This document shows positions 33,601-34,413 of a stretch of 64,000 nucleotides of DNA, one piece after another; the first letter of the stretch is position 1; each line of letters opens with the position of its first letter. This stretch comes from Escherichia coli (GTDB lineage Bacteria; Pseudomonadota; Gammaproteobacteria; Enterobacterales; Enterobacteriaceae), in assembly GCF_022846255.1 (NCBI RefSeq), contig NZ_AP025682.1; one strand, written 5' to 3'. Made by a program: the position numbers.

Positions 33601-34413
33601 TCGGCATTGAAAATGGTGGCAATCGCAGTCGGACCCGGATGCGGTGGCAGGAAGCCGTGGGTCACAGACAGTGCAGCCGCCATTGGTACACCAACATACA
33701 GCAGTGGAATATTCGCGGAAGCCGCGATGGTAAACACCAGCGGCAGCATCAGCACAAAGCCCACTTCATAGAACAGGGCAAAACCAACGGTAAAACCGGT
33801 CAGTACCACCGCCCACTGGATGTGTTTTTTACCAAATTTAGCAATCAGCGTGGTGGCGATACGTTGTGCGCCACCGCAGTCTGCCAGCATTTTGCCCAGC
33901 ATTGCGCCAAAACCCATGATCAGGGCAAGGCTACCGAGCGTTCCGCCGACACCTGCTTTGATGGAGCCAATAACTTTATCCAGCGGCATTCCTTGCATTA
34001 ATCCAACAGCAAGCGCCACGAGGACGAGAGCGATGAAGCCGTTCATTTTGAAACGGATCATCAGGAGCAACAACAAGATTACACCGATAGCAACAATGAC
34101 TAATGGCATGATTTACCTGGCCTTTCATTTGTTATGGGTAACGTCAATTTTCTGACGACAAACTCTAATTATCCCAATCGGGAACAGAGATATTGCGGCA
34201 CCACGACTGATACCCACTAAAACTAATTATTGTAGTCAGATGTCAGGAGTATGTTTGGTACCCACGTGAATGATACGGGTAACATCTGGCGTTTGAGAAT
34301 CACCAGAGCGGGGTAAATTTAAATTATGAGAGGTTGGTCATATTATCGCGGGGAAACGAAGGGAGGGGTTTGCCAAAGCAATGCTGCGCCAACGTCTGGC
34401 TCATGTTCAACGT

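What the first reader, a model, noticed from the sequence alone, without database searches (positions are those of the whole stretch)
34110..34300. Two GntR-operator-like palindromes upstream of gntT
Minus-strand sequences ATGTTACCCGTATCAT (34270-34285) and TGACGTTACCCATAAC (34131-34146) resemble gluconate repressor operators. Two operators are expected for gntT from the literature. Their positions relative to the start codon suggest a long leader or promoter-distal and promoter-proximal operators.
Basis: partly seen in the sequence, partly recalled or inferred. Interest (0 to 1): 0.15.

Follow-up and report, generated by a model that had tools for sequence, protein, structure and literature searches.

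The report
Known GntR operators of E. coli gntT
The two short palindromes are the two already-described binding sites through which the gluconate repressor GntR shuts off the E. coli gluconate transporter gene gntT, so the finding is correct but ordinary.

Summary
Both quoted strings are at the stated coordinates on the minus strand, upstream of gntT (32793-34109, -). The window is E. coli chromosome, and both sites are base-for-base identical to K-12.

- **O1** (ATGTTACCCGTATCAT, 34285-34270) has 1 mismatch to ATGTTA-N4-TAACAT. Its right half, TATCAT, is the predicted -10 hexamer.
It lies 20-35 nt upstream of the ATG, about +120..+135 in a roughly 154-nt leader.

A weight matrix built only from GntR sites of other K-12 operons ranks O1 and O2 first and second of all window positions. 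In 28 Enterobacteriaceae gntT upstream regions they are the two most conserved 16-mers (O1 16/16 columns invariant, O2 12/16), while the leader between them averages 53%.

Held literature uses O1 as the E. coli GntR operator and states that gntTp has two GntR sites plus a CRP site.

Mechanism: GntR, a LacI-family repressor, occludes the -10 at O1. O2 adds cooperative or roadblock repression, gluconate releases GntR, and CRP activates from about -71.5.

O1-O2 spacing varies over all helical phases between genera, which weakens a strictly phased loop.

Verdict: already known, low interest.

The parts
34270..34285 (-). GntR operator O1, ATGTTACCCGTATCAT; overlaps the -10 hexamer and the spacer (about -22..-7)
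   Evidence: Sequence. One mismatch to ATGTTAN4TAACAT. PWM rank 1. 16/16 columns invariant in 28 Enterobacteriaceae. Identical to K-12. The same 16-mer is used as a functional E. coli GntR operator.
34129..34144 (-). GntR operator O2, ACGTTACCCATAACAA; in the transcribed leader (about +120..+135), -35..-20 relative to the gntT ATG
   Evidence: 2 mismatches. PWM rank 2. 12/16 columns invariant, mean identity 0.989, second most conserved 16-mer. The core matches the RegulonDB-derived consensus TGTTACCCATAACA at 13/14 positions.
34270..34275 (-). Predicted sigma-70 -10 hexamer TATCAT (the right half-site of O1)
   Evidence: Promoter scan. TATCAT is described as the -10.
34294..34299 (-). Predicted -35 hexamer TTCTCA, with an 18-bp spacer
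   Evidence: Mean conservation 0.92 across 28 Enterobacteriaceae.
34324..34345 (-). CRP-like site TAATATGACCAACCTCTCATAA (TATGA-N6-TCTCA, 8/10 of the core), centre 34334.5, which is about -71.5 if the TSS is 34263
   Evidence: Read. The half-site bases TGAC and TC.CA are invariant in 28 species. The literature reports a CRP site at gntTp. The exact position is inferred.
34263..34263 (-). Inferred transcription start (+/-2 nt)
   Evidence: Inference: it lies 7 nt downstream of the -10 and is consistent with a class I CRP position of -71.5. Not measured here.
34110..34263 (-). gntT 5' leader of about 154 nt; poorly conserved between O1 and O2, with no significant structure
   Evidence: Mean identity 0.53 over 34261-34147. 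Fold z-score -1.04. No Rfam family in the leader.
32793..34109 (-). gntT coding sequence (438 aa, high-affinity gluconate transporter)
   Evidence: ORF. Pfam GntP_permease E 4e-189. RefSeq annotation.

Best explanation
These are the two operators of the E. coli gntT promoter for the gluconate repressor GntR, a LacI/GalR-family dimer encoded by gntR, which lies outside this window. Without gluconate, GntR bound at O1 covers the -10 hexamer and spacer and blocks RNA polymerase. GntR bound at O2, 141 bp downstream in the leader and 20 nt before the start codon, strengthens repression, either by cooperating with O1 through a DNA loop or by blocking elongation. Gluconate releases GntR from the DNA (at higher concentrations 6-phosphogluconate does too). 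cAMP-CRP bound at about -71.5 then activates transcription, so gntT is both gluconate-induced and catabolite-repressed. Shown here: the sites' presence, their match to the motif, the overlap with the predicted -10, their identity with K-12, and their extreme conservation. Taken from the literature: binding, inducer release, and the count of two sites. Inferred: the exact TSS and the way O2 contributes.
For: Sequence and coordinates. Motif matches. O1 contains the predicted -10 TATCAT, with -35 TTCTCA. Both sites are identical to K-12 MG1655. A PWM from gntK (2 sites), edd (2 sites) and idnK/D (1 site) ranks O1 and O2 #1 and #2 in the 64-kb window. All Enterobacteriaceae gntT loci with upstream sequence held carry O1, and all but one (L023, degenerate right half) also carry O2 at -34/-35 from the ATG. 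They are the two most conserved 16-mers, inside a leader that is only 53% conserved. Both are also untouched in a 12-18% divergent E. coli allele. Literature: O1 used as the E. coli GntR operator, with gluconate de-repression; consensus ATGTTACCCGTAACAT; RegulonDB-derived consensus TGTTACCCATAACA; gntTp has two GntR sites and a CRP site; GntR binding to the gntT promoter is inhibited by gluconate and 6-phosphogluconate; a PgntT reporter is repressed >5-fold by GntR; adaptive mutations occur in the gntT repressor site. GntR is LacI family.
Against: The two primary mapping papers (Porco 1997, Peekhaus & Conway 1998) are not in the held library. The published position of O2 ('about +120') and the looping/cooperativity claim therefore rest on my memory, not on a document read here. 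The TSS is inferred. The window-wide count of <=2-mismatch matches is not significant by itself. O1-O2 spacing is 133-147 bp, and 65 bp in Pseudescherichia, covering all helical phases; this does not fit a strictly phase-dependent loop.
Confidence: 0.93

Rival explanations
1. O2 is a genuine GntR site but acts on its own as a transcription-elongation roadblock close to the ribosome-binding site. It is not the second anchor of an O1-O2 repression loop.
For: O2's distance to the ATG is fixed (-34/-35) in all Enterobacteriaceae examined. Its distance to O1 takes the values 133, 136, 139, 140, 141, 143, 144, 147 and 65 bp, which covers every helical phase. K-12 edd shows a similar layout, with a second site at codons 5-10, 222 bp from the upstream one. 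GntR is a LacI-family protein with no tetramerisation evidence examined here.
Against: From memory, Peekhaus & Conway 1998 reported positively cooperative binding to the two operators and proposed looping. Loops of ~140 bp on supercoiled DNA tolerate phase changes. The fixed O2-ATG distance may only reflect one contiguous conserved block running from O2 through the Shine-Dalgarno sequence (0.88 between O2 and the ATG).
Confidence: 0.3
2. The same palindromes are also, or under some conditions mainly, occupied by the GntR paralogue IdnR (GntH), which links gntT to the GntII/idonate system.
For: IdnR and GntR are closest paralogues, and GntR recognises IdnR sites at idnK/idnDOTR. The idnK/D site ATGTTACGCATAACGT fits the same motif. 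[quoted passage not shown]
Against: This adds to GntR control rather than replacing it. idnR lies outside the window, so its presence in this strain is unknown. No binding data were read here.
Confidence: 0.4
3. O2's conservation reflects an RNA-level or translation-initiation element in the gntT leader, and its resemblance to the GntR motif is incidental.
For: The conserved block is contiguous from O2 to the ATG.
Against: The conservation peak falls exactly on the 16-bp operator frame. PWM score is 18.96 bits, rank 2 of ~64,000 positions. The leader fold is unremarkable (z -1.04) and no Rfam family matches there. The literature counts two GntR sites.
Confidence: 0.03
4. The palindromes are chance matches with no function.
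For: Window-wide, 5 matches at <=2 mismatches against 2.24 expected is not significant.
Against: PWM ranks 1 and 2. Invariance across 28 species and across a divergent E. coli allele. Functional use of O1.
Confidence: 0.01

Closest known systems
E. coli K-12 gntT promoter (gntTp) with its two GntR operators and CRP site (Porco et al. 1997; Peekhaus & Conway 1998; RegulonDB/EcoCyc)
   Same: Same locus. Between the -35 and the ATG there is one substitution (34265, G here, A in K-12), and both operators are identical. Same neighbours: nfuA upstream, malQ downstream.
   Different: Nothing functional. The window comes from another E. coli strain, about 98% identical to K-12 over this 2.7-kb stretch.
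E. coli gntKU promoter operators (Izu 1997; Tsunedomi 2003a)
   Same: Same repressor and same 16-bp motif: ATGTTACCGATAACAG and CAGTTACCCGTAACAT.
   Different: At gntK the two sites overlap with a 13-bp offset. This tandem layout is reported as typical for GntR orthologues in gamma-proteobacteria and is seen here upstream of gntT in Erwiniaceae, Yersiniaceae and Pectobacteriaceae with a 14-bp offset. Enterobacteriaceae gntT instead has the sites split by about 141 bp.
lac O1/O2 and gal OE/OI auxiliary-operator systems of LacI/GalR-family repressors
   Same: A LacI-family repressor, a primary operator at the promoter, and a second operator more than 100 bp downstream inside the transcribed region.
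   Different: Neither LacI-type tetramerisation nor GalR/HU-type looping was tested for GntR here. Operator phasing is not conserved between genera.
E. coli edd-eda P1 regulatory region
   Same: Two GntR-motif sites, one upstream and one next to the start codon (L083 3800-3815 and 3578-3593).
   Different: Spacing is 222 bp, and the downstream site lies inside the coding sequence (codons 5-10) rather than in the leader.

Membership tests
E. coli GntR (LacI/GalR-family gluconate repressor) operator | 16-bp imperfect palindrome matching ATGTTA-N4-TAACAT (consensus ATGTTACCCGTAACAT) | tested here: met
   O1 has 1 mismatch and O2 has 2 mismatches. The consensus is quoted, and the RegulonDB-derived TGTTACCCATAACA.
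E. coli GntR (LacI/GalR-family gluconate repressor) operator | Scores as a site with a model built from operators of other regulon members | tested here: met
   A PWM from the gntK, edd and idnK/D sites ranks O1 #1 and O2 #2 of all window positions.
E. coli GntR (LacI/GalR-family gluconate repressor) operator | Lies in the regulatory region of a gluconate-regulon gene, at a position able to repress (overlapping the promoter or downstream of it) | tested here: met
   The sites are upstream of gntT. O1 overlaps the predicted -10. O2 is in the leader.
E. coli GntR (LacI/GalR-family gluconate repressor) operator | Conserved in orthologous promoters (phylogenetic footprint) | tested here: met
   O1 is invariant at 16/16 columns and O2 at 12/16 in 28 Enterobacteriaceae. 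They are the top two 16-mers, against 0.53 for the leader background.
E. coli GntR (LacI/GalR-family gluconate repressor) operator | Bound by GntR protein and released by gluconate | not testable with these tools
   Literature only. O1 is functional with GntR and gluconate in a cell-free system. GntR binds the gntT promoter and is released by gluconate. Two sites are reported at gntTp. The primary papers are not held.
GntR-family (winged-helix, Pfam PF00392) regulator binding site | The cognate regulator carries a GntR-type winged-helix DNA-binding domain | tested here: not met
   K-12 GntR has a LacI HTH (PF00356) plus Peripla_BP_1/3 domains. It is treated as a LacI/GalR subfamily.
Auxiliary-operator DNA-loop repression (lac/gal type) | Two separated operators for one repressor at one promoter | tested here: met
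   O1 and O2 are 141 bp apart centre to centre.
Auxiliary-operator DNA-loop repression (lac/gal type) | Helical phasing between the operators is maintained | tested here: not met
   Spacings of 133, 136, 139, 140, 141, 143, 144, 147 and 65 bp among genera cover all phases. This is comparative evidence only, not a functional test.
Auxiliary-operator DNA-loop repression (lac/gal type) | Cooperative binding or repressor oligomerisation that bridges the two sites | not testable with these tools
   I recall this from Peekhaus & Conway 1998, but the paper could not be read here.
Class I CRP-activated promoter | A 22-bp CRP site (TGTGA-N6-TCACA) centred near -61.5, -71.5 or -82.5 | tested here: inconclusive
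   TATGA-N6-TCTCA at 34342-34327 has invariant half-site bases. The -71.5 position depends on the inferred TSS. The literature states that gntTp has a CRP site.

The most novel reading that the evidence does not exclude
O2 may not be a phase-locked loop partner of O1. In Enterobacteriaceae it is locked to the translation start (always -34/-35), while its distance to O1 drifts through every helical phase (133-147 bp; 65 bp in Pseudescherichia). Sister families keep the ancestral tandem 14-bp-offset pair at the promoter. On this reading the split layout would be an Enterobacteriaceae innovation in which the second operator acts as a start-codon-proximal roadblock. The same layout is seen at edd.
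Probability: 0.25. Interest if true: 0.25.

Novelty: already known. Interest (0 to 1): 0.07.

Why it matters
The finding confirms that the first-stage reader can recognise real operators from raw sequence. It adds no new biology, because gntT control by GntR and CRP is textbook E. coli regulation and is catalogued in RegulonDB/EcoCyc. The comparative results have modest value. The two operators form a very clean phylogenetic footprint. The frame of O2 is refined by 2 nt. The unconserved O1-O2 phasing gives a cheap, testable handle on whether GntR represses gntT by looping or by roadblock.

Tried and rejected
- **Primary papers.** I tried to read the primary mapping papers (PMC107090, PMC178870, PMC150117). 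None is held, so the published coordinates of O2 could not be checked directly.
- **Sequence search in papers.** Searching for the operator sequences found O1 and a RegulonDB-derived consensus, but no paper printing O2.
- **Mutation coordinate.** The supplement of the MBE paper, which might give the coordinate of the 'repressor binding site' mutation, is not held.
- **gntRKU in the window.** gntRKU is not in the window. The window starts in glgX, because a ~9.4-kb fimbrial island lengthens the glgP-glpD interval.
- **Leader RNA element.** No structured RNA is evident in the leader: fold z -1.04. The only Rfam hit is a sub-threshold naRNA4/REP match upstream of the promoter.
- **Second promoter at O2.** The consensus promoter scan found nothing there. 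By eye, GATAAT at 34173-34168 lacks a usable -35.
- **Other motif hits.** The remaining hits in the window are at 11187, 12597, 18787 and 61776. Three lie inside coding sequence. The glpD-glpE intergenic hit lacks the GTTAC core. All four were rejected as chance.

Full report
**Observation.** Both are upstream of a 438-aa ORF at 32793-34109 on the minus strand. That ORF is a GntP-family permease (Pfam E 4e-189) and is annotated gntT in 5,424 of 5,426 complete E. coli genomes, with nfuA upstream. The window is E. coli chromosome: glgX, glgC, glgA and glgP at the start, then malP, malQ, gntT and nfuA.

**Match to the motif and chance.** Against ATGTTA-N4-TAACAT, site 1 has one mismatch.

The count over the whole window is unimpressive: 5 matches against 2.24 expected, and 8 of 100 shuffles do as well. 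That rate corresponds to about 0.013 matches expected in the ~360-bp intergenic region, where two occur.

As an independent test I took five GntR-motif sites from other K-12 operons. These were two overlapping sites at gntK, one upstream of edd, one inside edd, and one between idnK and idnD. I built a symmetrised weight matrix from them and scored every window position. O1 (19.95 bits) and O2 (18.96 bits) rank first and second. The third hit, at 61776-61791, lies inside a 412-aa ORF. The other loose matches lie in fimbrial genes or lack the GTTAC core.

**Promoter anatomy.** The consensus scan finds one minus-strand promoter: -35 TTCTCA (34299-34294), an 18-bp spacer, and -10 TATCAT (34275-34270). 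The -10 is the right half-site of O1.

A CRP-like site, TATGA-N6-TCTCA, lies at 34342-34327 with its centre at 34334.5. If the transcript starts 7 nt after the -10, at about 34263, the geometry is as follows:
- CRP is centred at -71.5, a class I position.
- O1 spans about -22..-7.
- O2 spans about +120..+135, which is -35..-20 from the ATG.
- The leader is about 154 nt long.

The TSS is inferred, not measured. The leader has no significant fold (z -1.04). It has no Rfam match; the only hit is a sub-threshold naRNA4/REP match at 34416-34455, upstream of the promoter.

**Identity with K-12.** Aligned to MG1655 (L001), the region from the -35 to the ATG differs at a single base (34265). Both operators are identical, so the K-12 literature applies directly.

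**Phylogenetic footprint.** A protein-guided scan of one genome per species returned 80 gntT loci.
- Among the 29 Enterobacteriaceae loci with upstream sequence held, all 29 carry ATGTTACCCGTATCAT starting 168-182 nt before the ATG (100 nt in two Pseudescherichia-type loci).
- Twenty-eight of the 29 also carry an ACGTTACCCATAACAA-type site at -34/-35. The exception is L023, whose right half-site is degenerate.
- In a MAFFT alignment of 28 such upstream regions, O1 is invariant at 16/16 columns. O2, in the consensus frame, is invariant at 12/16 with mean identity 0.989.
- For comparison, the leader between them averages 0.53 and the sequence upstream of the CRP site 0.33.
- The two best 16-mers in the whole 300 nt are exactly 34270-34285 and 34129-34144. 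This also supports the 2-nt reframing of O2.
- The CRP half-site bases and the -35 are conserved as well.

**A natural experiment inside E. coli.** The region 34100-34350 exists as two alleles. 4,469 genomes are >=99% identical to the window, and 920 are about 87% identical. Divergence peaks at 82-86% identity between 34300 and 34101, whereas the gntT coding sequence is 96-100% identical. In that patch the minor allele resembles E. albertii at 93-95%. Both operators are untouched in both alleles.

**Literature that could be read.**
[quoted passage not shown] It showed GntR repression and gluconate de-repression.
- An NAR paper gives the consensus ATGTTACCCGTAACAT and the gntK-type site ATGTTACCGATAACAG.
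- A RegulonDB/PRODORIC-derived GntR consensus is TGTTACCCATAACA.
- gntTp is described as having two GntR sites and a CRP site.
- GntR binding to the gntT promoter is inhibited by gluconate and, at higher concentrations, by 6-phosphogluconate.
- A PgntT reporter is repressed more than 5-fold by GntR.
- E. coli GntR is a LacI/GalR-family protein.

The primary papers are not held. My recollection is that they place one operator over the -10 and the other near +120, with cooperative binding and a proposed loop. That is memory, not a checked source.

**Mechanism.** Most likely (0.93), these are the two GntR operators of gntT. O1 occludes the -10. O2 adds repression. Gluconate releases GntR, and CRP activates.

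How O2 contributes is less certain. Among Enterobacteriaceae, O1-O2 spacing takes the values 133, 136, 139, 140, 141, 143, 144 and 147 bp, plus 65 bp in Pseudescherichia. These values cover every helical phase, while the O2-ATG distance is fixed. This weakens a strictly phase-dependent loop and leaves room (about 0.3) for an elongation roadblock. K-12 edd has an analogous pair, one site upstream and one at codons 5-10, 222 bp apart.

In Erwiniaceae, Yersiniaceae, Pectobacteriaceae and relatives, gntT instead carries two operators offset by 14 bp. This tandem layout is known at E. coli gntK and has been reported as typical for GntR orthologues.

**Verdict.** It is an already-known regulatory element in its canonical place, so interest is low.

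Noticed in passing
window 34100-34350 (compare L085 1501-1749, L003): The gntT promoter/leader is dimorphic within E. coli: 4,469 genomes are >=99% identical to the window allele and 920 are about 87% identical. Divergence is confined to roughly 34500-34100 (82-86% identity at 34300-34101), while the gntT CDS is 96-100% identical. The minor allele is 93-95% identical to E. albertii in that patch. Both GntR operators are identical in both alleles.
   Followed up: partly
L026-L077 upstream regions (e.g. L036 -162/-148; L029 -140/-126): Outside Enterobacteriaceae (Pantoea, Erwinia, Yersinia, Serratia, Dickeya, Rahnella and others), gntT orthologues carry two GntR operators overlapping with a 14-bp offset, e.g. 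ATGTTACCGGTATCATGATACCGGTAACAA, instead of the split pair about 141 bp apart. Yersinia- and Rahnella-type loci also have a CRP-like ATGTGACTTTTATCAC 22 bp further downstream. The tandem layout is already described for GntR orthologues.
   Followed up: partly
L052 and L053 (Escherichia sp. ESNIH1, Pseudescherichia vulneris), 100 nt and 35 nt upstream of gntT: O1 and O2 are only 65 bp apart, so the leader is about 76 nt shorter than in E. coli. O2 reads GCGTTACCCATAACAT.
   Followed up: no
L083 3578-3593 and 3800-3815 (K-12 edd): K-12 edd has a GntR-motif site upstream (ATGTTACCGGTAAAAT) and a second one inside codons 5-10 of edd (TTGTTACGCGTAACAA), 222 bp apart. This echoes the gntT layout of one promoter site plus one start-codon-proximal site.
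   Followed up: no
window ~7704-17131: A chaperone-usher fimbrial operon (four fimbrial proteins, two chaperones and an usher) plus three hypothetical genes sits between glgP and glpD. It is absent from K-12 and present at full length in only 784 of 5,426 complete E. coli genomes.
   Followed up: partly
window 34416-34455 (-): A REP-type palindromic element (GCCCGATGCGACGCTAAAGCGTCATTTCGGGC) lies just after the nfuA stop codon. It gives a sub-threshold Rfam naRNA4 hit (27.5 bits against a gathering score of 59.5).
   Followed up: no
window 18787-18802: GTGATATGTATAACAT, in the glpD-glpE intergenic region, matches the loose GntR pattern with 2 mismatches but lacks the GTTAC core (PWM 9.4 bits). 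It is probably chance or part of the glp control region.
   Followed up: partly
window 61776-61791: TTTTTACCCGTAAAAA is the third-best PWM hit (16.4 bits). It lies inside a 412-aa ORF (60689-61927, +) and is judged a chance match in coding sequence.
   Followed up: yes
L023 (Pseudocitrobacter MAG), 35 nt upstream of gntT: O2 has a degenerate right half-site (ACGTTACCCATATAAA) while O1 is intact. This is the only Enterobacteriaceae locus examined without a good O2.
   Followed up: no
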